A stretch of 60,603 nucleotides of DNA. Origin: Promethearchaeota archaeon (GTDB lineage: Archaea; Asgardarchaeota; Lokiarchaeia; Sigyniarchaeales; SOKP01). The first letter of the stretch is position 1; every line of letters starts with the position of its first letter. Location of the stretch: contig JAUWZR010000001.1 of assembly GCA_030615235.1 (NCBI GenBank), forward strand, positions 1-60,603. Reading direction: 5' to 3'. Of this stretch, positions 1-26,906 are shown one piece after another. Below the pieces are notes generated by a model. The model was given only the letters and a program-made list of their open reading frames with translations, ran no database searches and had not been told where the DNA came from. The translations under genes and the position numbers were made by a program.

Positions 1-225
1 CATAACAGTTGTACATGGGGTAAAAAGAAAGAAGACGGTACGAGGATGTTTAAAAGTAGTAAAGTTTGGGGTACGACCAGTGTTCAGCAGACTGCTAAAA
101 AAGGCGGTTTAACAAGAAGCGATAAGATGTATTATTGTAAAACGTGTGCTAAGAAAGTGTACATCGAGAGAGACGATAATAGCAATGCTTATTGTACTGA
201 TTGTGGCGTGAAAATGTTCGGTTAA
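1..225 (+). CDS. 3' part of an ORF open from the window edge; zinc-ribbon protein (element-borne)
   Basis: Frame 1 is open from position 1 to the TAA at 223-225. The C-terminus reads YYCKTCAKKVYIERDDNSNAYCTDCGVKMFG, a CxxC-x16-CxxC ribbon. Confidence 0.4.
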   Translation, partial: HNSCTWGKKKEDGTRMFKSSKVWGTTSVQQTAKKGGLTRSDKMYYCKTCAKKVYIERDDNSNAYCTDCGVKMFG

Positions 226-278
226 TTTTATTTAATTTTAAAAATTTGTTTTTCTTTTTTTTTTTGGTGTTGTAAAGT

Positions 279-455
279 ATGTCGAAAGTAAAAGAAATTA
301 TGATAATGATAAGTATGATTGAAAAAAGTTTTAAATTAATAAAAACAGAAAAATGTGATAATTGTAAAAATTGGAAATTTGGTTGTGAGTTGTCTGGAAG
401 TTTCCGTAGGCAATGTAAAAATAATAATTTTAAAGATTATAATCCAAAAAATTAA
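279..455 (+). CDS. 58-aa Cys-containing mini-protein (not in the ORF track because it is under 60 aa)
   Basis: ATG at 279 to TAA at 453-455. Product is MSKVKEIMIMISMIEKSFKLIKTEKCDNCKNWKFGCELSGSFRRQCKNNNFKDYNPKN. Same strand and compositional style as its neighbours. Confidence 0.3.
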   Translation: MSKVKEIMIMISMIEKSFKLIKTEKCDNCKNWKFGCELSGSFRRQCKNNNFKDYNPKN

Positions 456-475
456 AATTTGGGATGTAGTTTAAT

Positions 476-1153
476 GTGGTAAAAATTAAAGAACTTACGA
501 TGATGGTGTATCGGAAGTACACTAAAGATTTTGATTCGTTAGGTTTTAGGTTTGGGGTGACTGTAGATTTGGAAGGGGGTGATCCGAGAGATTCGTGGTA
601 TCAGGGGCGGTTGTTTTTAGGCGAAAGGATTAAAGAAGAAGAAAAGTTGGTGATAAAGAAATTTGAGTGGCTGGCAAAAAAGAAAAAGATTGATGTTAAA
701 AGTGAGTCTATGAAAGGTGTAGAATTAGTGGAAATACCTAAATTGATGGAAATACCTAAAAGTGAAAAAAAAGTAGATAAACGGAGTTTTGTGTGGGTGG
801 AAGATTCTGATGATGCGTACCATAGGATAATGTTTGAGACTAATTTTAAAAAGGATGATATTGAGAGACAAATTGAAAGAGCTAAAGGAATGGGAATAAG
901 TGAAAAAAATGCGTTAATTGAGTTTGCTGGAGAACATGAAATTTATATAAGGTTTAAAGATAGCAAACCTAAAGTTTTTAAGGAAGTGTTGGGTATAGGT
1001 TATCGGATAAGAAGGATAATGAAAGCGACAGGTTTAACGAAAGATGTTATTGAAAAAATGGTGGAAGGAAAAATAGGTGACTTGAAGGGAAAAATTAGTA
1101 GGGATGGTGCTATTTTTGTAGTAGAAAAGGAGTTAGGTGTTGATATAAAATGA
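476..1153 (+). CDS. Hypothetical protein of the element (225 aa, Lys/Glu-rich)
   Basis: Long ORF on the element's coding strand. Its stop overlaps the next start (ATGA at 1150-1153). I recognise no motif. Confidence 0.5.
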   Translation: MVKIKELTMMVYRKYTKDFDSLGFRFGVTVDLEGGDPRDSWYQGRLFLGERIKEEEKLVIKKFEWLAKKKKIDVKSESMKGVELVEIPKLMEIPKSEKKVDKRSFVWVEDSDDAYHRIMFETNFKKDDIERQIERAKGMGISEKNALIEFAGEHEIYIRFKDSKPKVFKEVLGIGYRIRRIMKATGLTKDVIEKMVEGKIGDLKGKISRDGAIFVVEKELGVDIK

Positions 1154-1473
1154 GTTTGATGGGAAGAGAAAAGAAAGCGTGGGAAAGGTTGAGAAAGGTA
1201 GAGAAAGAAAATATAGCGGAAATTAAGAAGTTGCTTAGGTTTTGGAAAAAGAGAAAAAGAAAGTTGCATCATTGCGATTATAGAATGTTAAGGGTTGAAT
1301 GGGATGAATATAGATTGTTGTATGGTGTGGCTGTAGTGGAATGTAATGAGTCTGTAGATGGGTGGTTGGTTGTGGATAATGCTGAATACGGTAATAGGGT
1401 AAACTATTGTCCGTTCTGTGGTTATAAGGCAATAATACAAATGAAGTTGAGTCGTAAGGTGAAAAAAAGGTGA
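1150..1473 (+). CDS. Hypothetical protein with a C-terminal CxxC (YCPFCGY), element-borne
   Basis: 107-aa ORF with start and stop both overlapping its neighbours. Basic N-terminus, Cys-containing C-terminal half. Confidence 0.45.
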   Translation: MSLMGREKKAWERLRKVEKENIAEIKKLLRFWKKRKRKLHHCDYRMLRVEWDEYRLLYGVAVVECNESVDGWLVVDNAEYGNRVNYCPFCGYKAIIQMKLSRKVKKR

Positions 1474-1625
1474 AAAAGTATTATTGTGAAGTGTTTGAAT
1501 GTCTAGGTAGGGCTGAATATCAATGTGTTGAAAATCAAAAAATGTATTGTAGAAATTGTAAAATATTAATGAATGTAAATGGTGCAGGAATGGAAATTAA
1601 TGATTATAGTTTTAAAAGGTTATGA
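1470..1625 (+). CDS. 51-aa zinc-ribbon mini-protein, copy 1 of a tandem pair
   Basis: GTG at 1470 overlaps the previous stop (GTGA). Product is VKKYYCEVFECLGRAEYQCVENQKMYCRNCKILMNVNGAGMEINDYSFKRL. Same length and same KK-[YH]-YCEV start as the next ORF. Confidence 0.4.
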   Translation: MKKYYCEVFECLGRAEYQCVENQKMYCRNCKILMNVNGAGMEINDYSFKRL

Positions 1626-1777
1626 AAAAACATTATTGTGAAGTGTGTGGGAGAGTAACATTGCATTATATGAATTTTCCAGTAAATTTTGAATTAAAGG
1701 AGCGATCAGAAAGGGTTGTGGTGTGTCGTGAGTGTTGGAATGTGAATGCAATAGTTTACAAAGCGTTTGAAAAATGA
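1622..1777 (+). CDS. 51-aa zinc-ribbon mini-protein, copy 2 of a tandem pair
   Basis: ATG at 1622 overlaps the previous stop (ATGA). Product is MKKHYCEVCGRVTLHYMNFPVNFELKERSERVVVCRECWNVNAIVYKAFEK, with CxxC ... CxxC. Confidence 0.4.
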   Translation: MKKHYCEVCGRVTLHYMNFPVNFELKERSERVVVCRECWNVNAIVYKAFEK

Positions 1778-1793
1778 TTTATAGTCTCTATTC

Positions 1794-2900
1794 TTGGGGG
1801 TAAAAATGGTAATAAAGTTAAAGGTTGAGTATCATCGAGAGGGTATGTTTTATACGGTAAGGGGTAAAAGGCTAAGAGATTTGAACTCGTTAAAGGATAT
1901 GCGGGAACGGATTATGATGGTAAAGAATGCGGTTTGGAAGTGGCATGTTGTTTTGACGTTTGATCCTAAAAGTTTATATCATTATTTTAGGTCGTATGGT
2001 GATGTTGGGGTAGCGTTGTCTGATTATTTTGATAAGGTAAGAGGGAAATTCTGGGGTGTAAAGTATTTCTGGAAGTACGAAGAAGGTCAAAAAGTGTGGT
2101 GTATAGCTTGCGATAAAAAAGTAGATTTTATTTATGTTGTGGGTCGTGAAGGGTGGGTTATTTGTGAAGAGTGTGGAAAAGAAATTAAGGGGGGCGATTT
2201 ACCACACTTTCATTTGTTGTATGATTTTGTGAATCGGGGTGTGAGGTGTAGGTTAGATAATGTTGTTAAAACTTTAAAAAAGATAAAAAAAGTGAAGGTG
2301 AAACAAACGCCTAAAGGGAAGCTTATGTTGTTGGAGTGGGTTGAAAAAGAATTGAAGGTGTTACCAATGAAAAAGTTGATATTTCCAAAAAATTGGAGTG
2401 TGTTTGATTGGAAAAAATGGGAAAAGGATCAGCGAAAGTATGAAAATAACAAAAATAAAACTTTGTTGGAGTTGTTGGTGGGTTATTATCATTTTAAGAA
2501 ATGGGGTAATGGGTTGGTGCTTGCAAGGAAAATAAGAAATTATATGGATTTGAAAAAGTATGTAAAGAAAGATTTTTTTAAATATACGGAAGCTAAGTAT
2601 TTAAAGGGGGGTAAAAGAAAGTGGACTAATAGTTTGAATCTGTTGTATGAAAAAGGTGGTGAAGTAAGTGAAGGATGGGTAATGGTGTTAGAGACAATTG
2701 GTAAGTTTGAACCTGAAGAAGCGTTAGTTATGGTAATGAGGAGTAAAGAAAATATGATTGAGTATTATGATGGAAGGGGTCAAATTGGTAAATATATCTA
2801 TAAAAGAGTGATTGATGATATTAAAGGTTTTATTGTTGTTAAAAAACAGAAAATAATAAAAGTTAAAGAAAAGGTACAAGAAAGGTTTGATGTTTGGTAA
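1794..2900 (+). CDS. rep: Rolling-circle replication initiator (HUH-superfamily Rep) with an inserted zinc ribbon
   Basis: Motif I-like WHVVLTFDP, HUH motif II LPHFHLLYDF and motif III-like KKYVKKDFFKY (YxxK) occur in the canonical order. CIAC-x20-CEEC lies between motifs I and II. The real start is probably the ATG at 1806. Confidence 0.6.
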   Translation: MGVKMVIKLKVEYHREGMFYTVRGKRLRDLNSLKDMRERIMMVKNAVWKWHVVLTFDPKSLYHYFRSYGDVGVALSDYFDKVRGKFWGVKYFWKYEEGQKVWCIACDKKVDFIYVVGREGWVICEECGKEIKGGDLPHFHLLYDFVNRGVRCRLDNVVKTLKKIKKVKVKQTPKGKLMLLEWVEKELKVLPMKKLIFPKNWSVFDWKKWEKDQRKYENNKNKTLLELLVGYYHFKKWGNGLVLARKIRNYMDLKKYVKKDFFKYTEAKYLKGGKRKWTNSLNLLYEKGGEVSEGWVMVLETIGKFEPEEALVMVMRSKENMIEYYDGRGQIGKYIYKRVIDDIKGFIVVKKQKIIKVKEKVQERFDVW

Positions 2901-2937
2901 ACAGAGGGATTTGTAATTGTTGTCGGTATAAAGTTGT

Positions 2938-3035
2938 CAAGACTCGCAGTGTTTCAAAATACCGTCGTTTTCTTTTAGAATATGGAGGACGGAAATCTTT
3001 TTTCTTTTGCGACGGTGTTTTGTTGCGAGTCTTGG
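2938..3035. repeat. Long imperfect inverted repeat (hairpin) just downstream of rep
   Basis: CAAGACTCGCA (2938-2948) pairs with TGCGAGTCTTG (3025-3035), and CCGTCG (2962-2967) pairs with CGACGG (3010-3015). An extra CAAAA/TTTTG pairing lies between them. The ~42-nt apical region contains TTTTCTTTT twice. Confidence 0.65.
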
Positions 3036-3133
3036 GTTCAAAAGAAAACTTTTTCCGTAATTGTACTAATTATTCTTATTGCTTTGCTTATTCCTATTGT
3101 TTTTCGTTTAAGTTAATGTAGTGGTTGTCGTCT

Positions 3134-3154
3134 CTCGGGCGAAACCGAGTTTTT
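3134..3154 (+). terminator. Short stem-loop followed by a T-run at the element/chromosome composition boundary
   Basis: CTCGG (3134-3138), loop GCGAAA, CCGAG (3145-3149), then TTTTT (3150-3154). Confidence 0.35.
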
Positions 3155-3223
3155 ATTAATATAAATCTAAATATAATAATATAATTGGAATCTATCTTCA
3201 AATTTTAATTTTTACAATAAGTA

Positions 3224-4111
3224 GTGAATAAAATCAAAGCAACAGACAATATAACTTCAAGTATCATTAAATATTTACAGACAAATTTAAAAGGCGATAT
3301 TATTAGTATCTTTGGTATTGGTAGTTATTTTGATAAAAATCTTCCATCCGATTGGAGAAATACTGATATTGATGTAATTGTAATCGTATCTACCTTGGAT
3401 AAAATTACGAAACTCGATTGGACTGATGTTCGTTACGAAGTTAGAAAATTTGATAACCATAATACATGGATAGGATATAACACCATTCAAGGACTAAAAA
3501 CAAAAAAGCTTTTCGTTCAGGAATCCTTCGCAAATTATGAATGGAGTTTAATGGATTTAAAATTTAAAGAAAATTCTCAACTTTTATATGGAAAAGATAT
3601 TAGAGAGCAAGTTCCAGACCCTTTTAATTTTGATTTTGATTATAACGATATTTTAGCTAGATGCCTTTATCATTTGGATAAAAGTCTAAAAGCGAGCCAA
3701 ATTCGGGGGAATTCAGAACAAGCCATGATCGAATTTACAAAAGCGGTATTTAAATTTGGATTCTATTTGTGCCTTTTCTTCAGTAAAAGGTACTATCTGA
3801 CTTCAGTTCATAACATTTCATTACAACTTGATAAATTGTTATTGGATAACGATATACAGACCTCCATGCTTAATTTCATGAAGGAATCCATAATTTTTAG
3901 GAGAACAAATAAATTTTCTAAAAGATTCGAAATAATTAGAAAAAATTATGTGTTATTTACGCTTTTCCTACTCAGAAGTGGAATTCTTCATAGAAAGTAT
4001 GAGTTTCAAGAGTTGTTGATATTCCTCAAAAAAAAGTTTAATGGTATGCCTTATCTTATCTCTTACCTTAAGAAAGCAAAAAACATATTTTATTCTACTA
4101 AAACAAATTAA
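3224..4111 (+). CDS. Nucleotidyltransferase-domain protein (Pol-beta/MNT/KNTase-like fold)
   Basis: The block IFGIGSYFDKNLPSDWRNTDIDVIV fits the G[SG]-x(9-13)-DxD NTase signature. The C-terminal part looks helical. Confidence 0.6.
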   Translation: MNKIKATDNITSSIIKYLQTNLKGDIISIFGIGSYFDKNLPSDWRNTDIDVIVIVSTLDKITKLDWTDVRYEVRKFDNHNTWIGYNTIQGLKTKKLFVQESFANYEWSLMDLKFKENSQLLYGKDIREQVPDPFNFDFDYNDILARCLYHLDKSLKASQIRGNSEQAMIEFTKAVFKFGFYLCLFFSKRYYLTSVHNISLQLDKLLLDNDIQTSMLNFMKESIIFRRTNKFSKRFEIIRKNYVLFTLFLLRSGILHRKYEFQELLIFLKKKFNGMPYLISYLKKAKNIFYSTKTN

Positions 4112-12093: not shown

Positions 12094-12183
12094 GCCTTTG
12101 TGGCTTAGTCGTAGAGCGACTGATTCGTAAAATCCTCGATTCGAATCATCAGTAGGCCGGGGGTTCAAATCCCCCCAAAGGCT
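12094..12183 (+). tRNA. tRNA-Thr(CGU) with an ~18-nt canonical (37/38) intron
   Basis: GCCTTTG-TG-GCTT-AGTCGTA-GAGC-G-ACTGA-TTCGTA[12130-12147]A-TCAGT-AGGCC-GGGGG-TTCAAAT-CCCCC-CAAAGGC-T. Discriminator is U. Confidence 0.8.
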
Positions 12184-12187
12184 CTCG

Positions 12188-13204
12188 TTAAAGGGCTTGA
12201 GTTTCAATAAATTTTCTAATTATTTGTAAAGCAAGCATTTTGAAGGCATCGTTTATATTTTCTCCTGTTTTTGCGGAGGTTTCGATATAAGTCAATGTTA
12301 ATTTTTGCGCTAATACCTCTCCTTCGTCGCGAGATACTACTCTCTCAGACTCTAAGTCTATTTTATTTCCCACTAAAAGGAGGGCAATATTAGGGGAAGC
12401 TTTTTTAATCTCAAGATACCAATTTTTATTAATATTTTCGAAACTAGATCGATTAGTTACGTCGTAGACTAAAATACCCGCTTCGGCGTTAGATAGATAC
12501 GACTGTCTAACGCGTTTAAACTGAGCTTGACCCGCTAAATCCCATATTATGAACCTTATAGTGCTTTCAAGTTCTTTAAACGTGCACTCCTTCTTCATAA
12601 TAGAAGTCCCAATAGTGGATTTATAATCCGTTTCAAACTCATTTTCAACATATCTATGCACCATACTCGTTTTACCTACTGCTCCGTCACCTCCTAGAAT
12701 TAATTTAAAGGCATATTCTCTTGATTTGATTTTAACTTTTTGAAGTTTATTCAGTCTTCGCTGAATAGTGTCAGTACTACTCTCTGCAACTAATTTAGGT
12801 ATAACGGGGCTTACAGTTCTACCGTCAAAAATTCTTGCGATTTTCTCAGCAGCCAAGTAAGCATAAGGGAAAACTGAATCAATACCTGCTATAGCATCCA
12901 GAACAGTAACTAAAACTGCTTCTGGACCAGATTCGCAAAATATGAACCTATAATCTTCTGTATCGAAGGTTCCCGTTCCAAAGGATCCTGAATTAAATTC
13001 TTTAGTAATTCTAGTTAAAACAGGTTCTACTAAAGCATTTACACCGCTGATTATTTCTTCGTCAAGCGATTTTTCTGAAGACCCTACTAAAGAATCCATG
13101 ATCAATCCGTCTCTATTTACTACAAGAGCAGCAACTAAATTATCACCAAGACTCTGCTTGTACCACCCTAATAACGCAGCTAATTTTTTTGTATCGACTG
13201 ACAA
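12188..13204 (-). CDS. Roadblock/LC7 (MglB-like) domain fused to a Ras/Rab-like small GTPase
   Basis: The N-terminal ~130 aa has a Roadblock-like pattern (LVAALVVNRDGLIMDS ... AVLVTVLD). The C-terminal half has G1 GDGAVGKTS, G3 DLAGQ, G4 NKIDL and G5 ETSAK. Confidence 0.85.
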   Translation of the reverse strand: MSVDTKKLAALLGWYKQSLGDNLVAALVVNRDGLIMDSLVGSSEKSLDEEIISGVNALVEPVLTRITKEFNSGSFGTGTFDTEDYRFIFCESGPEAVLVTVLDAIAGIDSVFPYAYLAAEKIARIFDGRTVSPVIPKLVAESSTDTIQRRLNKLQKVKIKSREYAFKLILGGDGAVGKTSMVHRYVENEFETDYKSTIGTSIMKKECTFKELESTIRFIIWDLAGQAQFKRVRQSYLSNAEAGILVYDVTNRSSFENINKNWYLEIKKASPNIALLLVGNKIDLESERVVSRDEGEVLAQKLTLTYIETSAKTGENINDAFKMLALQIIRKFIETQAL

Positions 13205-14292: not shown

Positions 14293-14377
14293 GCAGGAGT
14301 TGCCAAGCCTGGTCAACGGTGCTAGACCGAGGCTCTAGTCTCATAGGAGTTCGAGGGTTCGAATCCCTCCTCCTGCA
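14293..14377 (+). tRNA. tRNA-Leu(GAG), class II with a long variable arm
   Basis: GCAGGAG-TT-GCC-AAGCCTGGTCAAC-GGT-G-CTAGA-CCGAGGC-TCTAG-[TCTCATAGGAGTTC]-GAGGG-TTCGAAT-CCCTC-CTCCTGC-A. The D-arm is typical of archaeal tRNA-Leu, with G37 and A73. It is followed by a T-run. Confidence 0.85.
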
Positions 14378-19352: not shown

Positions 19353-21131
19353 TTGGAAACCGGAACCACAGAGCAGAAGAAGGTTATTTTAAATAAACTT
19401 ATAAATTCAGGGATAAATATATCTCCTACAATGTTAGAAAACATTCTAACCATGAATAATCAGTTGAAAAACTTAAATCTCCTTATTAAGGAAACCAGTT
19501 TTATTCCCTCATTTAAGAGTCACTTAACCGAAACTGTTATAAAAGACATTTCAGACGAAAAACTTAAAAGAGTGTTGAAACGCACCATATCTAAAACCAA
19601 TTCTCTACTAATACAAGAAGAAACGAAAAAACCCATCGAATATTCCAATCCTCAACAAGAAGTAGTTATGGGTTTTTTAAGGGATAAAAGTCTACAATCA
19701 GAATTTTCACCCCTTTTTGAAAAATCTAACACAGAATACAAAAACCAAGAAAGTTCTAATGCAGATCTCTTGCCCAAGCAAATTACCAAAATGAAAAACA
19801 CAAAAAAAACTCCAAGATTCGAATCCACCAAATCTATCTTTACCTTCAAACCTATCGCTAAAGAATATAAATCTAACTATGAAGTTATTCAAGATCCTTC
19901 AAGTAAATTATTTACTACCGGAAAATACGATGATTTTTACGAATTAACGCTTGACAAATATAATAAGCTTAGAAATCTCATCAGAAAAAGACCAGAAGTA
20001 AGCTCGGCTACTAAGATCAATAACATATTTAGGATATCTAATAGTATTGAAATATCAACATTAGGTTTAGTAGATAATATTCATCAAACAAAAAAAGGGA
20101 ATTTTCTTTTTACTTTGGAGGATTTAACTGGAAAAATTAGTGTATTGATTCAAAACAAATCGGAAAACTTTGATTCCGTTAAAATTATACAAAGAACTCT
20201 CAATGATCAGATGTTGTTCGTTAAGGGTTTGTATAATCCTGGTGAAAATGGGAGAAAAGGAATAATTTTTGCTTCCTACATCTCAAAAATAGATATTCCG
20301 ACAGATTTTCAACCTAATTTATCTCCTGATCCTCTCTCTATCGCTTTAATTTCAGATATTCACATTGGAAGCAAAGAGTTTGAAGAAGGATTATTTGCTA
20401 AATTTATTAATTTTTTAAACGGTAAAAGTAAAAATAAACTCTTAAGAGAAAAGGCTGGAAGAATAAAATACTTAGTCATCAATGGCGATCTAATTGATGG
20501 AGTAGGTATATATCCTAACCAACAAGAAGATCTCGTTATCGCAGATATTTATAAACAATTCAAAAAAGCTTCAGATCTTCTTTTGGAAATTCCGGATTAT
20601 ATTAAAATATTTTTTGTTTCTGGAAATCACGAACCAGTAAGAAATGCTATACCACGACCCGCAGTACCCAAGAAATATTGCGAAGATTTAGTTAACATGG
20701 GAATCAAATGTCTGGGCAACCCTTCTTTAATTAAAACTCATAATGTCAACACGCTTATATATCATGGGGAGGGAATGCACGATATTAATAGATTCATTCA
20801 TGATTTAGACATAAATAAACCGATCGAGACCATGAAGGAATTTCTAATATGTAGACATCTTGCTCCAATATTTGGTGAAAAAACGCAAATAGCACCTGTA
20901 AACACTGATCATCTAATAGTAGAAAAGATTCCTGATATCTTTCATACAGGACACATACATATAAACGGGATAGGAAAATATAGGAATGTAACTCTCGTAA
21001 ATTCTGGATGTTTTCAAGCTCAAACTGACTTTATGAAAAGTTTTGGGATAATACCTACTCCAGGTATAGTACCAGTAATTGAGTTGGATTCTTTAGATTT
21101 TTTATCACTCGATTTTAAAAAAATTAATTAA
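19353..21131 (+). CDS. dp1: DNA polymerase D small subunit DP1 (Mre11-like phosphoesterase fold)
   Basis: ALISDIHIGS, INGDLIDGVG, SGNHE and TGHIH calcineurin-like phosphoesterase motifs sit in the C-terminal half. Divergent from dp2. The start in the track is a TTG. Confidence 0.9.
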   Translation: METGTTEQKKVILNKLINSGINISPTMLENILTMNNQLKNLNLLIKETSFIPSFKSHLTETVIKDISDEKLKRVLKRTISKTNSLLIQEETKKPIEYSNPQQEVVMGFLRDKSLQSEFSPLFEKSNTEYKNQESSNADLLPKQITKMKNTKKTPRFESTKSIFTFKPIAKEYKSNYEVIQDPSSKLFTTGKYDDFYELTLDKYNKLRNLIRKRPEVSSATKINNIFRISNSIEISTLGLVDNIHQTKKGNFLFTLEDLTGKISVLIQNKSENFDSVKIIQRTLNDQMLFVKGLYNPGENGRKGIIFASYISKIDIPTDFQPNLSPDPLSIALISDIHIGSKEFEEGLFAKFINFLNGKSKNKLLREKAGRIKYLVINGDLIDGVGIYPNQQEDLVIADIYKQFKKASDLLLEIPDYIKIFFVSGNHEPVRNAIPRPAVPKKYCEDLVNMGIKCLGNPSLIKTHNVNTLIYHGEGMHDINRFIHDLDINKPIETMKEFLICRHLAPIFGEKTQIAPVNTDHLIVEKIPDIFHTGHIHINGIGKYRNVTLVNSGCFQAQTDFMKSFGIIPTPGIVPVIELDSLDFLSLDFKKIN

Positions 21132-21166
21132 ATTCTTCTACATTTAATTGTATTGGGTGTTTTAAA

Positions 21167-21850
21167 TTGAATTTTGCTATTCCACGGGGAAATACCTCAA
21201 AAATGGTTTTACATATTTGGAAAATAATAGAGCTTCCAAGTTTAAGTCGAGATGATTTATCACACAAAATTACTTTTGAGCTATTTCTTTTCTCGCCTAA
21301 AGAGGCAAAGGAATTCATGAATATAGCTATTCATAAAGGTTATCTAATTATAGAAAGCGATGGGCAAATTAAAATATCAGAATCTTTAGCTCTCGAGTTA
21401 AACAAATGGCATGAAAAGAGAAAAATAAACATTTCAAAAAAGATAAAAGATGTCAACGATCTCAACGAATTCGGCGATGATTCTAAAAAAAATGGCATAA
21501 ACAAGTTCAAAATTTTATTAAAAGCTTTACTTGATAAAGGAACTATAAATAGAGCGGTAGCAGAGTCTGACAGCGCATATAAATTTAGAATAATCGATTC
21601 TGGTCAAAAAATTATTAAAGCTGAAGTTCAGGGTTCTCAGAAGATTCCGTATAACATTGATATAAACATAAGTGAAAAAGTGATAAAACATAATTGTCAT
21701 GATTTTCGGACTAAAAGAGCAGTAAATAAAAAATTCTGTAAACACTTAGCGAAATTATTTCTCCTCTTAAAAATAAAAAACGCAGATTTAGCGTCGTACA
21801 TTCTTGAGAGTATTACCAAAGATATTAATAATTGGAATTTCCTTGCTTAA
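21167..21850 (+). CDS. Hypothetical protein with a C-terminal SWIM-like zinc-finger remnant
   Basis: HNCHDF-x12-CKHLAKLF resembles the CxC-xn-CxH SWIM motif with the second Cys replaced. The likelier start is the ATG at 21203. It overlaps the orc1 stop by 4 nt on the opposite strand. Confidence 0.4.
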   Translation: MNFAIPRGNTSKMVLHIWKIIELPSLSRDDLSHKITFELFLFSPKEAKEFMNIAIHKGYLIIESDGQIKISESLALELNKWHEKRKINISKKIKDVNDLNEFGDDSKKNGINKFKILLKALLDKGTINRAVAESDSAYKFRIIDSGQKIIKAEVQGSQKIPYNIDINISEKVIKHNCHDFRTKRAVNKKFCKHLAKLFLLLKIKNADLASYILESITKDINNWNFLA

Positions 21851-23172
21851 ATTAGCTTTTTAAACACCATATTCTTTATCTTAACTTTATCGGTCTGGAG
21901 TATTATCGGTTTATAATCCAATAATCGATACTCTTTTATTTTCTTAATCTGAGACAAAACTCGTTCTATTAAGTTAAAATCGATGTCAAGTTTTACAATT
22001 TTCGTTCGTCCATAATGACCCATCGATTTTGTATATGTTATTATTAATCCTGATAACGATAATTCATTAACATAGTCACTAATCCTTCTATGCGTCAATT
22101 GTTTCACATTTGGAATGAATTGTGCTAATTCTGAATGAACTTCGTAGATATCGCCTGAAGTAATTATGTGTTCTTTAGAGTATTTTGACAATAAAAAGAT
22201 GGCCGTTAAAGTTAGTTTTACTTGAAGGGGCATCGAAAAGATATATTCAACAATGTGATCTTTATCTATATCTTTTTGAGCTTTTTCTACATGATTTTCC
22301 ATTATTTTTTTAGTTTGATTTCGTTCAGCGATTTCTCCAGCTTTTCTTAATAATTGAAGAGCTTTTCTCGCATCACCATGTTCTTTTGCTGCTAAACCTG
22401 CACATAGCTTTATAACTCCATCGTCAATAACGCCTTCCTGAAAAGCTACATCTGCTCTTAATTTAAGGATATCGTAGAGTTGGTTAGCGTTATAAGGATG
22501 AAAGACAATTGGTTCTTCTTCCTCTAGATTAGATGTAACTCTCGCATCGAGGAATTCCATGAATTTTAGCTTATTAGAAATCCCAATAACACTCGTTCTA
22601 CAGTGATCTAAGTTCTCATTTAATCTCGTTAAGTTATACAAGATTTCATTTCCTCCTTTTTTTTCAATTAGGATATCTATTTCATCTAATACAAGAAAAC
22701 ATATGCTATCTTTGATATATTGGTCCAATAAACCTAGCAATTTCTTGAGAATTACGTCTTTAGGTAAACCCGTTGATGGGATTTTTTCTTTACCAACTAT
22801 CGTATTGTAGATATGAGCTAAGATTCTATAAGGTGTAGACACTACTGTACAATTAATATATACCCACCAAGGAGGTTTTGTAGAGCAATGTTGCGCAAGT
22901 TTTTGTGAAATGTACCTTACAGTAGCCGTTTTACCCGTACCAGTCATCCCATAACACAAAAAATTGGAGGGAACATCACCTTTTAGCGCACAAGCAGTTA
23001 TGCCAGCTATCTTCTCGATCTCCGAATTCCTGTGAGGTAATTCATCAGGAATAAACGATGGTTCGAGAGCTTCTCGTTTTTTAAAAAGTTTCGGACCTTT
23101 TAAGTAATTCCGGTAAAATTTATCGATATTGAATGAATACATGCCTTTTTCATTATGGTTAGTCAACACCAA
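21847..23172 (-). CDS. orc1: Orc1/Cdc6 replication initiator
   Basis: LPHRNSEIEKI, Walker A GMTGTGKTA and Walker B LVLDEID, with a C-terminal winged-helix region. The track start is a TTG, and an ATG lies 10 codons in. Confidence 0.93.
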   Translation of the reverse strand: MVLTNHNEKGMYSFNIDKFYRNYLKGPKLFKKREALEPSFIPDELPHRNSEIEKIAGITACALKGDVPSNFLCYGMTGTGKTATVRYISQKLAQHCSTKPPWWVYINCTVVSTPYRILAHIYNTIVGKEKIPSTGLPKDVILKKLLGLLDQYIKDSICFLVLDEIDILIEKKGGNEILYNLTRLNENLDHCRTSVIGISNKLKFMEFLDARVTSNLEEEEPIVFHPYNANQLYDILKLRADVAFQEGVIDDGVIKLCAGLAAKEHGDARKALQLLRKAGEIAERNQTKKIMENHVEKAQKDIDKDHIVEYIFSMPLQVKLTLTAIFLLSKYSKEHIITSGDIYEVHSELAQFIPNVKQLTHRRISDYVNELSLSGLIITYTKSMGHYGRTKIVKLDIDFNLIERVLSQIKKIKEYRLLDYKPIILQTDKVKIKNMVFKKLI

Positions 23173-23469
23173 TTCCCACCATGTAAATTTTTTCCACTCG
23201 AAATAATGTCAATATTTGATATTTCGATTCCGCGCTATTTAAATTTATTTATTAATCGAAAAAGTAAGCATAATATGTTAAAGGTTTAATATGCTAGTTT
23301 TGATTTGCAGCGATCAAATCGATAGTTTATAATAATATTGTCGGAACTTTAAAAGATAATTATTTATGAAGCAATATTATTAAGGGTTTAGTATAATTTG
23401 TTATATTTGCCAAAATTTAATTTTAATTAAAAATTATTAAACATATTCATTTTAATTACTTGAAAATTT
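23173..23469. promoter_or_regulatory. AT-rich divergent intergenic region upstream of orc1; candidate replication origin and promoters
   Basis: 297-nt non-coding gap next to orc1. Inverted repeats are TCGAAATA (23198-23205) / TATTTCGA (23220-23227) and GATTTG..CAAATC. TTCCAC / CCCACC elements lie near 23173-23197. I could not define a clear ORB consensus by eye. Confidence 0.3.
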
Positions 23470-24240
23470 ATGTCTAGAAATAATAAGGGTGATATTAACC
23501 GAAGAGATATAAAGCTCGCTATAATATTGACTTTAATGTTTATCAGTTTGCTTTTTTTTAACTTTCTGATTATCTCTATCATCTTTACATGGGCTGATTG
23601 GTTAGCGACTTTAATTTTTAGTATGCTTTTTATTGTCCCAGCATATTTTTCGAACGCAGGAATGGTTATTGTCGGTGGTGGAAAACCATTAGATAAGGGA
23701 AAATTTTGGCGCGATGGCCGTAGAATTTTAGGAGATCATAAAACAATATCTGGACTTGTCAAAGGACCTTTATACATAGGGATACCCTTAAGCAGCGCAT
23801 TATTCTTGCTATTTTTTATTTTATGGCCCGTAATACAACAGATTCCAATTGAGGGTGCTTCTTATGGAGTTTACATTTTATATTCTGAATTATCTTATTA
23901 TCAGTATTATTTTGTTGGAGGTTCATTTCCAATAGGAATAGTTATTATACTTTTTAGGATTGTCTTTTGTTCATATGGTGCAGCTTTTGGAGATTTAGCT
24001 GGATCTTTTCTGAAAAGAAGGTTTAATATTAAAAGTGGAGCGCCTTTTTGGATCGTAGATCAATTAGATTTTGCGGTAGGAGCTCTGATTTTTGCTTTAA
24101 TACCAGCTATTTTTTTCCCAGGGTTATACTTGATCCCAGATATGAACATCGTTATTTTTCTTCTCATTTTAACCCCCTCTGTAAGCCTTATATCTAATAC
24201 AATAGCGTATCTAATTAATTTAAAAGATGTGCCTTGGTAA
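23470..24240 (+). CDS. carS: CDP-archaeol synthase
   Basis: PAYFSNAGMVIVGGGKPLDKG, DGRRILGDHKTISG and GDLAGSFLKRR blocks are typical of CarS. It is a multi-TM protein, and 256 aa is longer than I expect for the family. Confidence 0.75.
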   Translation: MSRNNKGDINRRDIKLAIILTLMFISLLFFNFLIISIIFTWADWLATLIFSMLFIVPAYFSNAGMVIVGGGKPLDKGKFWRDGRRILGDHKTISGLVKGPLYIGIPLSSALFLLFFILWPVIQQIPIEGASYGVYILYSELSYYQYYFVGGSFPIGIVIILFRIVFCSYGAAFGDLAGSFLKRRFNIKSGAPFWIVDQLDFAVGALIFALIPAIFFPGLYLIPDMNIVIFLLILTPSVSLISNTIAYLINLKDVPW

Positions 24241-24249
24241 TAAAAATGC

Positions 24250-24765
24250 TTATATTTTAACTACATCACACTTAATTCTAACTTGAAATCTGGTGTTATT
24301 AACAAAAATAACGCACCGTTCGAAAATCTCGTTAACTGCTTTTATGTAATTACCGTTACAACCTACAGCTATTCCTCGTTCCTCGTACGAAAGAAAACCT
24401 ACCATTACATACATTTTTCCAGTATAATTGTTTCTTTCGATTATAACTGTGTGAATATAAGGATCTGGAAAAAACCCATAAACTAAGTTAACTAGTACGT
24501 CTTCTTCCCGTACAATCATGATTTTCCTATGCTGAAATTTCTTTCGAAGATAGGGTAATTTTGACTTTGCACTAAAATAATTTTCATTTTTTAGGAAAAA
24601 AAAAACAAATTCGTTTACTACAATCACATTTTGCGGAAAAACCTTAGTAATTTCATGAAAAAAGTGAAAAAGTAAAAGCTCTTCATTTGAAAACTTCTTT
24701 TTTATAGTTAACTTTTGATAAAAAAGCAAATTATAAACAAATGCGTTATGAACTGTACTCAACAT
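24250..24765 (-). CDS. Hypothetical protein, possibly a divergent two-KH (archaeal NusA-like) fold
   Basis: The C-terminal block YVMVGFLSYEERGIAVGCNGNYIKAVNEIF resembles a KH GxxG segment. The similarity is weak and motif-level only. Confidence 0.3.
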   Translation of the reverse strand: MLSTVHNAFVYNLLFYQKLTIKKKFSNEELLLFHFFHEITKVFPQNVIVVNEFVFFFLKNENYFSAKSKLPYLRKKFQHRKIMIVREEDVLVNLVYGFFPDPYIHTVIIERNNYTGKMYVMVGFLSYEERGIAVGCNGNYIKAVNEIFERCVIFVNNTRFQVRIKCDVVKI

Positions 24766-24865
24766 ATAATTACAATTTCAGAACTATTATTTTAAACTCC
24801 TAGGAAAATTAAATCAGACAACAAAAAGTTTAAATTTAAACGAGACTATTTATAGTAATTTTATA

Positions 24866-25324
24866 ATGAAAAAAATTAGGTTTCACATGAAAAAAGCAGG
24901 ATTTGAGTTTAGAGAGCATACTGCAGATGTTCAGGTAAGAAGTTGGGGATCATCATTAGAAGAAGCTTTTTCGCAAACTGCTTATAGTTTAATGGCGACA
25001 ATAACACCAAACTTAATAAAAATAACTCCTATAGTCGAAAGAGAAATAACTGTTGTGGCTGAGGATAAAGAAGCCCTATTATTTGATTTTCTTTCTGAAT
25101 TTTTATATATTTTTGATGTTGATGAGCTTGTTTTTAATCAAATCTATGTGCATTCAATTGAAAAATTCAACGATAATTATAAGTTGCATGCTACTCTAAA
25201 AGGTGAAAAATTCGACTTAGATAAGCACGAAATAGGAATTGAAGTTAAGGCCATAACTTATTCCTTCTTAAATATAGAAGAAAAATACGAAAGCACCATA
25301 ATAGATATAGTATTTGATATTTAA
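24866..25324 (+). CDS. Archease (RtcB activator)
   Basis: FEFREHTADVQVRSWGSSLEEAF and GIEVKAITY blocks. The likelier start is the ATG at 24887 (MKKAGFEF). Confidence 0.9.
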   Translation: MKKIRFHMKKAGFEFREHTADVQVRSWGSSLEEAFSQTAYSLMATITPNLIKITPIVEREITVVAEDKEALLFDFLSEFLYIFDVDELVFNQIYVHSIEKFNDNYKLHATLKGEKFDLDKHEIGIEVKAITYSFLNIEEKYESTIIDIVFDI

Positions 25325-25433
25325 CTTCGAAATATTTTTTGGATAATGATATCATTTAAAATTTTATCATGAAATAATAAAAAAAATATTTCTTTTTTTG
25401 GAAAATTCAATTTAAATAAGAAGAAGTTGATAT

Positions 25434-26906
25434 TTACCCTTTTACAACGCCAATTGGAACTAACCTTACAATTTTTTCCACAATGCCGAGATCTTGGCTC
25501 ACTTGGACAACCTGATCTATGTCTTTATATGCTCCAGGAGCTTCTTCCGCAATTATTTTAGGCGAGGCAGCTCTTACGGTAATTCCTTTTTTCCTTAGAT
25601 CTTCCTTTATTTTAGCGCCCCAATATTGTTTCGTTGCCTTAGACCTTGACATCAAACGCCCAGATCCATGAGCTGTAGAACCAAAAGAAAGATCCATTGC
25701 TTTTTTTCTACCCACACATAAATACGAAGCGGTTCCCATAGTTCCAGGAATCAAAGCTGGTTGACCTATACTTTTATAATCACGGGGTATATCTGGATGC
25801 TCTGGTGGGAAGGCTCTCGTTGCGCCTTTTCTGTGGACATTTAATTTCATTTTTTTCCCGTCAACATCATGTTCTTCTATCTTTAAGATATTATGGCAAA
25901 CACCATAAATCAATTTAAAGTCCAGATCGTCCAAACTCCTTTTAAAATGTTTTTGGAACGATTCTCTTAGCCAATGCGTTATTAACTGGCGATTAGTAAA
26001 CCCAAAATTTGCAGCACACGCCATATTTTTCAAGTATTGCATTGCCTCCGGAGTATCGGCTGGTACACAAGCTAATTCGCGATCTGGTACTTTTATTTTG
26101 TATTTTCTCATTGCTTGTTCGATATTTCTAAGTGAATCCGTGCACACTTGATGACCAAGAGCCCGAGAACCAGTATGAACCATGATAGCTATTTGATCTT
26201 TATCAATGATTCCCAACTTCTTTGCCACTGACTCGTTATAAATCTCATCAACCTTTTGTATTTCGAGAAAATGGTTACCGCTTCCTAAAGAACCGAGTTG
26301 TTTTATTCCTCTTTGCTTTGCTTTTTGAGATACTAATTTCGAATCAGCGTTTTTCAAAACACCGTTTTCTTCGCAATGCTCTAAATCCTCTTTTATAGCA
26401 TAATCATTATCTAATGCCCAATTTAAGCCGTTATCTAAAACATCATCTAATTCCGAGGAATTGATGCTTAATTTTCCTTTACTTCCTAATCCGGATGGTA
26501 TATTCTTAAAAATAGTGTCTAGTAGGTTAGGAATTGAACTTTCAATATCTTTAAGGTGAAGATTTGTTCTTAGAATTCTCACACCACAGTTTATATCGTA
26601 TCCTACACCACCTGGGGAAATCATTCCAGAATAAGCGTCTGTTCCTGCTACACCCCCAATACAAAACCCATAGCCTTGGTGTGCATCAGAGAGAACGATA
26701 GCGTGTTTTTGTATGCCGGGGAGACAAGCTACATTACTAATTTGATCCAAAGTTCTATCGTTTTTAATTTTTTCTAAAATGTAATCGTTAGCATAAATAT
26801 GGACTGGTACTTTCATTTGAAATTTTGCGATCTTTCCTTCCACTCGAGCCATTAAAGTTTTTTGAGGGATTTCGTAGATGTTTTCATCTATTTTATTCAC
26901 ATTCAT
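25434..26906 (-). CDS. rtcB: RNA-splicing ligase RtcB
   Basis: GYDINCGVR, GSGNHFLEIQ and HTGSRALGHQ blocks. 490 aa, with no intein-sized insertion. Confidence 0.95.
   Translation of the reverse strand: MNVNKIDENIYEIPQKTLMARVEGKIAKFQMKVPVHIYANDYILEKIKNDRTLDQISNVACLPGIQKHAIVLSDAHQGYGFCIGGVAGTDAYSGMISPGGVGYDINCGVRILRTNLHLKDIESSIPNLLDTIFKNIPSGLGSKGKLSINSSELDDVLDNGLNWALDNDYAIKEDLEHCEENGVLKNADSKLVSQKAKQRGIKQLGSLGSGNHFLEIQKVDEIYNESVAKKLGIIDKDQIAIMVHTGSRALGHQVCTDSLRNIEQAMRKYKIKVPDRELACVPADTPEAMQYLKNMACAANFGFTNRQLITHWLRESFQKHFKRSLDDLDFKLIYGVCHNILKIEEHDVDGKKMKLNVHRKGATRAFPPEHPDIPRDYKSIGQPALIPGTMGTASYLCVGRKKAMDLSFGSTAHGSGRLMSRSKATKQYWGAKIKEDLRKKGITVRAASPKIIAEEAPGAYKDIDQVVQVSQDLGIVEKIVRLVPIGVVKG

What the first reader, a model, noticed from the sequence alone, without database searches (positions are those of the whole stretch)
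1..3120. Compositionally foreign, single-strand-coded block at the window edge: part of a rolling-circle plasmid/virus-like element
From 1 to about 3120 every plausible ORF is on the + strand. Genes abut or overlap by 4 nt (ATGA 1150-1153, GTGA 1470-1473, ATGA 1622-1625). The + strand is visibly C-poor; my hand tally of 481-540 gives 13 G and 6 C. Several products carry CxxC...CxxC ribbons, and the largest ORF has HUH Rep motifs. After the hairpins at 2938-3154 the sequence switches to the unskewed AT-rich style of the chromosome. No integrase or att duplication is visible in the part inside the window, so how it joins the chromosome (integration, or an assembly join) is open.
Basis: partly seen in the sequence, partly recalled or inferred. 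Interest (0 to 1): 0.62.

Follow-up and report, generated by a model that had tools for sequence, protein, structure and literature searches.

The report
Rolling-circle provirus end in Asgard archaeon
The first 3.1 kb of the window are the right-hand end of a 7-8 kb virus-like mobile element inserted in the chromosome of an Asgard archaeon; I found no description of its family, which carries a rolling-circle replication gene and a capsid-like gene and has almost no cytosine on the coding strand of its genes.

Summary
Window 1-3000 has a GC skew of +0.5 to +0.74, against at most 0.46 anywhere else in the window. Every credible gene is on the + strand, and the stated 4-nt overlaps exist.

The block is the right 3.1 kb of a 7.0-8.1 kb element. 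Its relatives occur only in Asgard (Promethearchaeota/Hermodarchaeota) assemblies and marine-sediment metagenomes.

The 364-aa protein (1806-2900) is an HUH rolling-circle Rep of the ORF2/G2P clade, with a zinc ribbon inserted. The rest of the family's gene set lies left of the window. It includes a 248-aa protein whose model matches only single-jelly-roll virus capsids, two membrane/glycine-rich proteins and fibre-like proteins.

The join to the chromosome is genuine and polymorphic. A unitig crosses 3149/3150 in the source run, and five runs, including the source run, hold the empty site ending at exactly that base. The element therefore ends at 3149, with a conserved terminal GC-rich motif, not at about 3120.

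No integrase is encoded. One relative is flanked by a 13-nt repeat that occurs once in the orthologous empty site, which lies in this same window.

The C-depletion follows the coding strand, not the replicon strand. Its cause is unexplained.

The parts
1..225 (+). 3' half of a conserved gene of about 155 aa with a C-terminal zinc ribbon; it is cut by the window (contig) start
   Evidence: Frame 1 is open from base 1. It is 60-65% identical to the C-terminal 56-62 residues of 153-163-aa proteins in L003, L004, L006, L009, L001 and L005. Weak Zn_ribbon Pfam hits.
279..455 (+). 58-aa Cys-rich ORF with no homologue in the relatives
   Evidence: coding-strand skew 0.58
476..1153 (+). 225-aa conserved protein of unknown function; it is the gene upstream of the rep block in all relatives
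   Evidence: 31-47% identity to 175-243-aa proteins of L001, L003-L006 and L009. No Pfam or PHROG hit.
1150..1473 (+). 107-aa protein with a C-terminal CxxC; its homologues lie downstream of rep in other elements
   Evidence: 41-49% identity to L001 6410-6763, L004 11125-11439 and L009 7004-7291
1470..1625 (+). 51-aa zinc-ribbon protein, paralogue 1
   Evidence: repeat D5: 24 of 27 nt shared with 1623-1649
1622..1777 (+). 51-aa zinc-ribbon protein, paralogue 2
1806..2900 (+). HUH rolling-circle replication initiator (364 aa) with an inserted CxxC...CxxC zinc ribbon. Motif I is W46-H-V-V-L-T-F, motif II is P133-H-x-H-L-L, and motif III is Y252-V-K-K-D.
2938..3027 (.). Long compound stem-loop: outer stem CAAGACTCGCA/TGCGAGTCTTG and inner stem ACCGTCG/CGACGGT. 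Candidate double-strand origin or Rep recognition structure.
   Evidence: DNA fold z = -6.0. Analogous large stem-loops of different sequence sit at the same place in L005 (z -5.5) and L017 (z -5.9).
3126..3149 (.). Terminal GC-rich motif GTCGTCTCTCGGGCGAAACCGAG (contains the hairpin CTCGG/CCGAG); its last base is the right end of the element
   Evidence: The motif TCGGGCGnAACCGA occurs once per element in W, L001, L005 and L017, always at the point where flanks diverge. Empty-site contigs start at 3150.
3150..3163 (.). Host target sequence TTTTTATTAATATA next to the insertion; possible direct-repeat copy (left junction not in the window)
   Evidence: It is present in the empty-site contigs. 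It also follows a second element variant in run X1.

Best explanation
Window 1-3149 is the right-hand 40% of an integrated, recently mobile, 7-8 kb virus-like element (provirus) in the chromosome of a Promethearchaeota (Asgard, Lokiarchaeia-like) archaeon. The contig starts inside the element, so about 4-5 kb of it lies to the left of the window.

Shown:
- The element belongs to a family with a conserved gene order: fibre-like module, 248-aa jelly-roll protein, two membrane/glycine-rich proteins, small zinc-ribbon proteins, a protein of about 200 aa, Rep, then a structured non-coding right end.
- The 364-aa protein is an HUH Rep.
- The insertion is present in part of one population and absent from the same site in others.
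- The ends of the element are the same in independent insertions.
- One relative is flanked by a 13-nt duplication of host sequence.
- No integrase is recognisable.

Inferred:
- The element leaves the chromosome as a circle.
- Rep nicks at an origin in the structured 250 nt between rep and the right terminus, possibly at the terminus itself, which would explain why every copy is opened at the same base.
- Rep drives rolling-circle replication using Tyr252. Asp256 stands where phiX174-type Reps have a second tyrosine.
- The 248-aa protein builds a small icosahedral capsid.
- Re-insertion into AT-rich intergenic DNA is done by Rep or by a host enzyme.

The near-absence of C on the sense strand of every gene is a family trait imposed at the level of transcription or mRNA, not of the replicon strand. 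Its cause is not known.
For: Skew and gene layout.

Family and synteny.

Integrated copies lie between unrelated host genes: L004 between MgtC and glycosyltransferase genes, L005 between cdc6 and carS, L006 between a TIM gene and a class-I aminoacyl-tRNA synthetase gene, and L013.

Rep:
- Invariant motifs.
- AF2 model with pLDDT 78. It puts motif I and the HUH motif on beta strands and Tyr252 on a helix.
- BFVD hits to microvirus replication initiators, ORF2/G2P proteins and HRPV-1 ORF1, E 2e-5 to 1e-2.
- A profile search of 1.84 billion proteins finds 36 relatives. Nine remote ones were taken. All nine match Pfam PF23343, six of them above its cut-off. They align to the family with hhalign probability 100%, E 1.3e-46.

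Capsid-like protein: model pLDDT 80; all 50 best PDB matches are jelly-roll capsid proteins, E 3e-4 to 2e-3.

Insertion:
- In source run X1 a 114-nt unitig spans 3066-3179 with no mismatch.
- Empty-site contigs end at 3150 in X1, X4, X7 and X22, and at 3152 in a SNP variant seen in X2, X4 and X7.
- The element is found only in X1, while the flank is found in at least 20 runs of 7 studies.

Termini and repeats. The 13-nt repeat of L005 is present once in the orthologous site at window 23276-23420.

Host: rpoB is 94% identical to that of a Promethearchaeota MAG and 73% to that of Ca. Lokiarchaeum ossiferum. Relatives are found only in Asgard MAGs.
Against: - No particle, free circular contig or circle junction was seen. 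Contigs of element size carry short host flanks and no terminal overlap.
- The capsid call rests on a predicted structure with low TM-scores (0.1-0.3) and no sequence support.
- The Rep model has no significant match among solved structures, and the window protein itself gets no direct Pfam hit.
- No packaging ATPase and no integrase were found.
- Direct-repeat length is not constant (13 nt in L005, 5 nt in L017), which fits no single known integration chemistry.
- No RNA data cover the element.
- The capsid-like and fibre-like genes are not in the window, so for this copy they are assumed from relatives.
Confidence: 0.7

Rival explanations
1. It is a non-viral integrative element: a rolling-circle plasmid that integrates, or a rolling-circle transposon working like IS91 or Helitrons. 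Rep acts as the transposase and the 3'-terminal hairpin as the termination signal. The jelly-roll protein would then be a lectin-like or other non-capsid protein.
For: - HUH protein with a zinc-binding module next to a hairpin that sits exactly at the 3' end.
- No integrase.
- Insertion into AT-rich sites at many loci.
- No free or circular form seen, no packaging ATPase, and no hit in IMG/VR or INPHARED.
- Foldseek TM-scores for the capsid-like protein are low.
Against: - A host-derived 13-nt direct repeat flanks L005, whereas IS91 and Helitrons make no target duplication.
- Only one tyrosine is invariant, and there is no helicase domain.
- Half of the element encodes a conserved jelly-roll protein whose 50 best structural matches are all capsids. 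It also encodes membrane/glycine-rich proteins and fibre-like proteins with weak tail-fibre and tape-measure PHROG hits. That is a virion-like module, not transposon cargo.
Confidence: 0.2
2. It is an assembly artefact: a separate circular plasmid or virus genome wrongly joined to the chromosome contig at about 3120-3150.
For: The contig begins inside the element. Logan's assembly of the source run breaks the region into small unitigs, and a long contig starts exactly at 3150.
Against: - A non-branching unitig of the source run covers 3066-3179 without mismatch at depth 7.8. The flank depth of 16.7 fits a mixture of occupied and empty sites, though the depth of the empty-site contig was not given.
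- The empty site is seen with its break at the very base where the conserved terminal motif ends.
- Relatives are embedded in longer Asgard contigs with host genes on both sides.
Confidence: 0.02
3. This rival concerns the skew only. The C-poverty would be the mutational footprint of a single-stranded genome or rolling-circle intermediate: deamination of the displaced or packaged + strand, as in ssDNA phages and mitochondrial H strands.
For: - All genes in the window and in L001, L005 and L013 lie on one strand, with an HUH Rep.
- Relative to the host, third positions lose C and A and gain G. That is the direction expected from C>T and A>G deamination of the exposed strand.
Against: - In L003, L004, L006 and L009 the fibre-like module lies on the other strand and has a mirror-image skew of -0.4 to -0.6.
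- The 230-440-nt left non-coding region has no G excess, and the right non-coding 2901-3149 has only +0.22.
- T is not enriched at third positions (36.0% against 36.3%).
Confidence: 0.15

Closest known systems
Integrated microviruses (gokushovirus-like or Alpavirinae proviruses of Bacteroidetes and Enterobacteria; class Microviricetes, realm Volvereviria in the 2026 scheme, PMC13595969)
   Same: A small element with a jelly-roll capsid-type protein and an HUH rolling-circle initiator of the gpA/gpII (ORF2/G2P) kind. It resides in the host chromosome without an integrase of its own. Named fold matches of Rep in BFVD include microvirus replication initiators.
   Different: - The host is an Asgard archaeon; the realm is described as infecting bacteria (PMC13595969).
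- No sequence similarity to any phage record.
- The capsid-like protein is 248 aa. Microvirus MCPs are roughly twice that size (my knowledge).
- Rep carries a zinc ribbon and Tyr+Asp instead of two tyrosines.
- The element is 7.0-8.1 kb and has fibre-like genes.
- Insertions are at several unrelated sites rather than at dif (my knowledge for the microvirus side).
Alphapleolipoviruses (HRPV-1 and relatives; Pleolipoviridae)
   Same: Archaeal, 7-16 kb, with HUH Rep in the alpha genus, and commonly found as proviruses (PMC13107129, PMC13595969). HRPV-1 ORF1 is among the fold matches of the Rep model.
   Different: No recognisable pleolipovirus spike/fusion or matrix protein, and no NTPase. The family has a jelly-roll capsid-like protein instead. 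Hosts are Asgard archaea, not haloarchaea.
CRESS-DNA viruses of eukaryotes (circoviruses, geminiviruses)
   Same: The pairing of a jelly-roll capsid protein of about 200-250 aa with an HUH Rep. Circovirus and geminivirus capsids are among the best structural matches of the 248-aa protein.
   Different: Rep has no superfamily-3 helicase domain and belongs to the ORF2/G2P clade. The genome is 2-4 times larger, with about 15 genes, and it is integrated in a prokaryotic chromosome.
Rolling-circle transposons (IS91 family, Helitrons)
   Same: HUH enzyme with a zinc-binding module, a hairpin at the 3' end, no integrase and AT-rich targets (my knowledge for the transposons; here).
   Different: Here there is a host-derived flanking repeat, a single invariant Tyr, no helicase and a virion-like gene module.
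Described Asgard viruses and MGEs (verdandi-, skuld-, wyrd- and fylgjaviruses; NMV1-3; 'enigmatic MGEs' 7H_11/8H_18)
   Same: Same host phylum and sediment habitats. Many small zinc-finger proteins (10.1101/2021.07.29.453957). WyrdV4 and WyrdV5 also encode HUH endonucleases.
   Different: Those viruses have HK97, double-jelly-roll or spindle-type capsid proteins, or Topo mini-A. None is described with a single-jelly-roll protein plus this Rep or with this skew. The family is absent from IMG/VR.

Membership tests
HUH superfamily rolling-circle endonucleases (Pfam REP_ORF2-G2P clade) | Motif I (hydrophobic-hydrophobic-T-hydrophobic on a beta strand) | tested here: met
   W46-H-V-V-L-T51-F52. W46, V49, T51 and F52 are invariant in 23 sequences. 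The motif lies on strand E46-52 of the model.
HUH superfamily rolling-circle endonucleases (Pfam REP_ORF2-G2P clade) | Motif II: His-hydrophobic-His | tested here: met
   P133-H134-F-H136-L-L. Both His are conserved in at least 90% of sequences. The motif lies on strand E134-140 and aligns to RPHFHLL of the remote relatives.
HUH superfamily rolling-circle endonucleases (Pfam REP_ORF2-G2P clade) | Motif III: catalytic Tyr (YxxK) on a helix | tested here: met
   Y252, V253, K255 and D256 are invariant and lie on helix 246-255. Remote relatives have YVxKD or YxxKY.
HUH superfamily rolling-circle endonucleases (Pfam REP_ORF2-G2P clade) | Significant match to the curated family model | tested here: inconclusive
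   A direct hmmscan of the window protein gives no hit at E<=1. Indirectly, all nine remote homologues match PF23343, six of them above its cut-off, and they align to the window family at hhalign probability 100%, E 1.3e-46.
HUH superfamily rolling-circle endonucleases (Pfam REP_ORF2-G2P clade) | Fold similarity to known Rep structures | tested here: inconclusive
   PDB: no match at E<=0.001. BFVD predicted structures: microvirus replication initiators, ORF2/G2P proteins and HRPV-1 ORF1 at E 2e-5 to 1e-2, TM about 0.2-0.3.
HUH superfamily rolling-circle endonucleases (Pfam REP_ORF2-G2P clade) | Site-specific nicking and joining at an origin | not testable with these tools
   Candidate structures are at 2938-3027 and 3126-3149.
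Small icosahedral Rep-encoding viruses (Microviricetes-like) | Jelly-roll major capsid protein | tested here: inconclusive
   The 248-aa family protein is not in the window. Its model has pLDDT 80. All 50 best PDB matches are jelly-roll capsids, E 3e-4 to 2e-3, but TM is only 0.1-0.3. No sequence-level support.
Small icosahedral Rep-encoding viruses (Microviricetes-like) | Circular single-stranded genome in particles | not testable with these tools
   No circular contig or junction was found. Only assembled contigs of DNA runs were available.
Small icosahedral Rep-encoding viruses (Microviricetes-like) | Sequence relationship to known members | tested here: not met
   tblastn of Rep and of the 248-aa protein against 50,697 phage records gives no match. 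No PHROG family.
Integrase-dependent proviruses or integrative elements | Element-encoded tyrosine or serine recombinase | tested here: not met
   No recombinase domain in any ORF of the window part or of the ten L003/L004 ORFs scanned. Called genes of L001-L009 carry no Pfam hit.
Integrase-dependent proviruses or integrative elements | att repeats, often in a tRNA gene | tested here: inconclusive
   Short flanking repeats exist (L005 13 nt, L017 5 nt), but their lengths and sequences differ. There is no tRNA at the window junction; tRNAs occur only at 12.1 and 14.3 kb.
Rolling-circle transposons (IS91/Helitron) | No target-site duplication; two catalytic tyrosines; helicase (Helitron) | tested here: not met
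   A 13-nt host-derived repeat flanks L005. Only one Tyr is invariant. No helicase domain.
Pleolipoviridae | Spike/fusion protein and membrane matrix protein module | tested here: not met
   No Pfam or PHROG match to such proteins in any family ORF. The morphogenetic candidates here are a jelly-roll protein and fibre-like proteins.

The most novel reading that the evidence does not exclude
The block is one end of the founding member of an undescribed family of small temperate viruses of Asgard archaea. These would pair a single-jelly-roll capsid with an HUH rolling-circle Rep. That architecture is so far known from bacterial microviruses and eukaryotic CRESS-DNA viruses, but not from archaea. 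Their sense-strand cytosine purge would report a process that attacks or edits cytosines in transcripts or in the non-template strand, either host defence or the element's own biology. Their integrase-free insertion would be carried out by Rep at the terminal hairpin.
Probability: 0.35. Interest if true: 0.85.

Novelty: new variant of a known kind. Interest (0 to 1): 0.72.

Why it matters
[quoted passage not shown] Their described viruses are tailed, double-jelly-roll or spindle-type, and show no special link to eukaryotic viruses (10.1101/2021.07.29.453957).

A provirus family pairing a jelly-roll capsid-like protein with an HUH Rep would add a new virus architecture to archaea. The 2026 realm-level taxonomy lists small icosahedral rolling-circle viruses for bacteria and eukaryotes only (PMC13595969). 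It would also give a testable case for where Rep-plus-jelly-roll viruses came from.

The family is invisible to the standard resources: no Pfam or PHROG hits, and no relatives in IMG/VR or INPHARED. It shows what compositional scans can recover.

Two mechanisms are open to experiment: integration without an integrase at a fixed hairpin terminus, and an unusually strong C depletion linked to gene orientation (3% C at third positions).

The polymorphic insertion also gives a natural occupied/empty pair for PCR-based work on sediment or enrichment samples.

Tried and rejected
- Pfam and PHROG scans of all window ORFs gave only weak zinc-ribbon hits. PDB sequence searches of Rep, as a single sequence and as a profile, gave nothing.
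- Rfam found only the two host tRNAs.
- IMG/VR held no relative, and INPHARED tblastn gave none.
- Circularity: no terminal direct repeat of at least 12 nt in any element-size contig.
- I tried to reach the empty site in a 94%-identical genome through rpoB (P0096). That contig ends 1 kb short of the site.
- The metatranscriptome of the same sample held no contig on the window.
- For the second subgroup of elements (L003, L004, L006, L009) the left end is defined, but the right end could only be placed to within about 10-20 nt. Their apparent 6-8-nt repeats are therefore not counted as evidence.
- The Rep-Arvir family (TBP-fold Rep, PMC13107129) was considered because of a weak TBP-TOTE Pfam hit. 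It was rejected because the protein has HUH motifs and ORF2/G2P relatives.
- The NMV2S satellite and Fylgjavirus papers describe different elements.
- I considered integration at a dif site by the host XerA, as microviruses and inoviruses do in bacteria. It was judged unlikely because the insertions lie at several unrelated loci.

Full report
**1. The observation**

The composition break is real and large.
- In 500-nt windows the GC skew of the + strand is +0.50 to +0.74 from base 1 to 3000. It falls to +0.32 at 2751-3250 and to +0.11 at 3001-3500.
- In 1-kb windows the first three values are +0.57, +0.67 and +0.65. The remaining 57 kb lie between -0.27 and +0.29.
- No 500-nt window outside the block exceeds |0.46|.
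- G+C content itself (0.29-0.37) is not unusual for the window. The anomaly is the strand asymmetry.

Small corrections:
- 481-540 has 12 G, not 13, and 6 C.
- The first gene is open from base 1 and is the C-terminal half of a protein of about 155 aa.
- The block ends at 3149, not at about 3120 (see section 4).

The skew is strongest at third codon positions. There C is 3.3% and G 28.8%, against 12.0% and 13.0% in 16 host genes. It also reshapes amino-acid usage: W, C, M, V and K are up, while P, Q, T, S and A are down.

**2. The host**

The rest of the window is an archaeal chromosome.
- It holds an unsplit rpoB, PolD DP1 and DP2, Cdc6/Orc1, Cbf5 and a Ras-family GTPase.
- RpoB is 94% identical to that of a Promethearchaeota MAG. 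It is 73% identical to those of Ca. Lokiarchaeum ossiferum and Ca. Harpocratesius.

The host is therefore an Asgard archaeon of the Lokiarchaeia-like part of the phylum.

**3. What the block belongs to**

The 368-aa ORF (364 aa from the ATG at 1806) has 25 relatives at 40-63% identity among 5.8 billion proteins. None is annotated. One comes from Promethearchaeota archaeon Loki_b31.

Fetching their contigs shows a syntenic element of 7.0-8.1 kb. Its gene order is:
- a module of fibre-like proteins (82, 127 and 179 aa; fused to 374 aa in L005);
- a very conserved 248-aa protein;
- membrane/glycine-rich proteins of 138 aa and about 225 aa;
- small proteins, including a zinc-ribbon protein of about 155 aa;
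- a protein of about 200 aa;
- several proteins of 50-60 aa;
- the Rep-like protein;
- one to three small genes and a structured non-coding end.

The window holds only the part from the 155-aa gene rightwards. One gene (1150-1473) has moved from downstream to upstream of rep.

Where the family is found:
- In 185,579 species-representative genomes it occurs only in four Asgard MAGs: Loki_b31, a Hermodarchaeota MAG, and two further Promethearchaeota MAGs, one of which holds only a fragment.
- JGI and NCBI metagenome contigs add 16 loci, several of which repeat contigs already fetched, and some come from Asgard-rich deep sediments.
- IMG/VR and INPHARED hold none.

**4. Is it really integrated?**

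Yes.
- Relatives sit inside longer contigs between ordinary host genes at unrelated loci. L004 lies between MgtC and glycosyltransferase genes, L005 between cdc6 and carS, and L006 between a TIM gene and a class-I aminoacyl-tRNA synthetase gene; L013 is also embedded.
- For the window itself I laid Logan contigs of public runs on it. In the source run X1 a 114-nt unitig covers 3066-3179 without mismatch, at depth 7.8. The flank contig has depth 16.7. X1 also holds a contig that matches the window from 3150 rightwards but reads …GCATTTTTAAATCAACCATTCATT before it.
- The same empty-site sequence ends at 3150 in X4 and X7, with a SNP variant ending at 3152 in X2, X4 and X7. X22 also breaks at 3150, though its preceding letters were not listed. 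These runs come from three studies.
- The element is found only in X1, whereas the flank occurs in at least 20 runs of 7 studies.

The join is therefore not an assembly chimera. The insertion is polymorphic within the source sample, and the element ends at 3149.

**5. The ends**

Base 3149 is the last base of a GC-rich motif, GTCGTCTCTCGGGCGAAACCGAG. Its core TCGGGCGnAACCGA occurs exactly once in each of four diverged elements (window, L001, L005, L017). In each case it lies at the point where the flanking sequences become unrelated.

The left terminus is likewise fixed: CATWAGTTATAAT in L005 and L017, and AGATAGTTTATAA in L003, L004, L006 and L009.

L005 is flanked by ACGTCAGAATTTTAA on both sides.

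The window happens to hold the orthologous locus without an element. The L005 flanks align to window 19851-23291 and 23511-26024. The two flanks joined with one copy of the repeat align without a gap at the junction to window 23276-23420, which has a single GTCGGAACTTTAA. So 13 nt of host sequence are duplicated, or shared, at the L005 insertion.

L017 has only TATTT on both sides. For the other subgroup the right end could not be fixed to the base. Repeat length thus seems variable.

No ORF of any element has a recombinase or transposase domain.

**6. The Rep protein**

An alignment of 23 family members shows these features:
- an invariant W46-x-x-V-x-T-F (motif I);
- an invariant CxxC…CxxC at C99/C102 and C120/C123;
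- P133-H134-x-H136-L-L (motif II, at least 90% conserved);
- an invariant Y252-V-x-K255-D256-F (motif III).

The AlphaFold model (pLDDT 78) puts motifs I and II on beta strands and Tyr252 on a helix.

Solved structures give no significant match. Predicted viral structures do: microvirus replication initiators, ORF2/G2P-domain proteins and HRPV-1 ORF1, at E 2e-5 to 1e-2.

A profile search of 1.84 billion representatives finds 36 proteins. I took nine remote ones of about 280-370 aa. All nine match Pfam PF23343 (REP_ORF2-G2P), six above its cut-off. They align to the window family with hhalign probability 100%, E 1.3e-46.

That alignment shows how the window family differs from the core. It has two insertions: the zinc ribbon between FWKYEEG and PHxH, and about 50 residues after the HUH strand.

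In two remote relatives motif III reads YxxKY, the two-tyrosine form of phiX174 gpA. Here the second position is Asp. From what is known of pC194-type Reps (my knowledge), an acidic residue can replace the second tyrosine and terminate a round by hydrolysis. This is inference.

**7. Virus or plasmid?**

The best-conserved family protein is the 248-aa one, which has 37 relatives at 48-100% identity. Its model has pLDDT 80 and is nearly all beta.

All 50 best Foldseek matches in the PDB are jelly-roll capsid proteins: circo-, noda-, picorna-, tymo-, gemini- and birnaviruses and a satellite virus. E-values are 3e-4 to 2e-3 and probabilities reach 0.97, but TM-scores are low.

Other genes point the same way:
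- The fibre-like proteins carry repeated GDW…W…G…W and WDASGG motifs and give a weak tail-fibre PHROG hit (E 2.9e-4).
- The 225-aa glycine-rich membrane protein gives weak tape-measure hits.

I read this as a virion module and the element as a provirus, at about 0.6-0.7 confidence. There is no packaging ATPase and no direct evidence of particles.

**8. The non-coding right end**

Between rep and the terminus lies a compound stem-loop (2938-3027; z = -6.0). L005 and L017 have stem-loops of similar size but different sequence at the same place (z -5.5 and -5.9). This conservation of structure without sequence suggests a function.

I propose that this structure and the terminal motif form the origin and Rep recognition region. 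The constant opening point of the element could then be the Rep cut site. Neither is shown.

**9. The skew**

It is a family trait: +0.3 to +0.77 over plus-strand genes in every locus. It is tied to gene orientation.
- In L003, L004, L006 and L009 the fibre-like module is on the minus strand and has a skew of -0.4 to -0.6.
- In L001, L005 and L013 the homologous module is on the plus strand and has a positive skew.
- The left non-coding region of 230-440 nt shows no G excess, and the right non-coding 249 nt show only +0.22.

A strand-wide effect of a single-stranded genome or of rolling-circle displacement therefore does not account for it. Remaining explanations are transcription-coupled mutation of the non-template strand, or selection for C-poor (purine-rich, weakly folding) transcripts. 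The host genes show the same tendency only mildly (+0.1 to +0.25). I could not decide between these.

**10. Comparison with what is known**

The element resembles four known kinds in part and is a member of none.
- It works most like temperate microviruses: a jelly-roll capsid, a gpA/gpII-type Rep, and residence in the chromosome without its own integrase. It shares no detectable sequence with them, has an archaeal host, a half-size capsid-like protein, a zinc-ribbon Rep and variable insertion sites.
- It shares host domain, size range and Rep type with alphapleolipoviruses, but lacks their envelope proteins.
- It shares the capsid-plus-Rep logic with CRESS-DNA viruses, but lacks their helicase domain.
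- It shares the terminal hairpin and the zinc-HUH enzyme with IS91 and Helitrons, but has a flanking repeat, one tyrosine and no helicase.

The papers I could search on Asgard viruses and MGEs do not describe it. A 2026 taxonomy paper assigns small icosahedral rolling-circle viruses to bacteria and eukaryotes, and only pleomorphic ones to archaea.

Absence from the searchable literature is not proof that it is unpublished.

**11. Verdict**

The finding is confirmed and its interpretation is supported. It extends to an undescribed, Asgard-specific family of small Rep-encoding proviruses.

Two features remain unexplained: the orientation-linked cytosine depletion, and the integrase-free insertion at a fixed hairpin terminus.

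Noticed in passing
window 23173-23469: The AT-rich intergenic region next to cdc6/orc1 (21847-23172, minus strand) is a probable replication-origin region. It is the orthologous, unoccupied site of the insertion seen in relative L005. It holds one copy (GTCGGAACTTTAA) of the 13-nt repeat that flanks L005. Just upstream it has CGATAGTTTATAAT, which resembles the element's left terminus.
   Followed up: partly
window 3066-3163 (run X1): A second variant of the element end (8 mismatches) shares the 14 nt TTTTTATTAATATA after the terminal motif. It then continues TTTAAAAGAAAAACACTGAAATGAAT instead of the window flank. This could be another insertion with the same target, another host strain, or a circle junction.
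   Followed up: partly
window 64-249 (run X1): One contig of the source run joins 63 to 250, skipping 186 nt. The skipped stretch holds most of the 3' end of the first gene and the T-rich spacer. This is a deletion variant of the element in the same sample.
   Followed up: no
window 1470-1777: Two tandem paralogous 51-aa zinc-ribbon genes. Their first 27 nt are 89% identical, and they overlap each other and the upstream gene by 4 nt.
   Followed up: partly
window 12094-12184 and 14293-14377: tRNA-Tyr (91 nt, long enough to hold an intron) and tRNA-Leu(GAG). Neither is near the insertion site.
   Followed up: no
window 12188-13204: A 338-aa protein with a C-terminal Ras/Arf-type small GTPase domain (Pfam Ras, E 5e-51). 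This is a eukaryote-like signature gene typical of Asgard genomes.
   Followed up: no
window 3224-4111: A 295-aa host ORF right of the insertion with a GS…DxD pattern reminiscent of nucleotidyltransferases but no Pfam hit. It is present in the empty-site contigs, so it is not part of the element.
   Followed up: partly
L012 1555-3248; L013 9989-11649: Distant relatives of the element (Hermodarchaeota and AMARA_1S MAGs) carry two or three adjacent short Rep-like ORFs. These could be tandem duplicates or a split gene.
   Followed up: no
L005 4030-4040 and 4087-4097: The 11-mer TTTCAACTACT occurs both in the host flank 28-38 nt left of the junction and 19-29 nt inside the element's left end. This may be chance, or a trace of an earlier insertion or of homology used in targeting.
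   Followed up: no
window 35197-35269: A 33-nt tandem repeat (2.2 copies, 80% matches), rich in C and G, inside the ORF 34929-35366.
   Followed up: no
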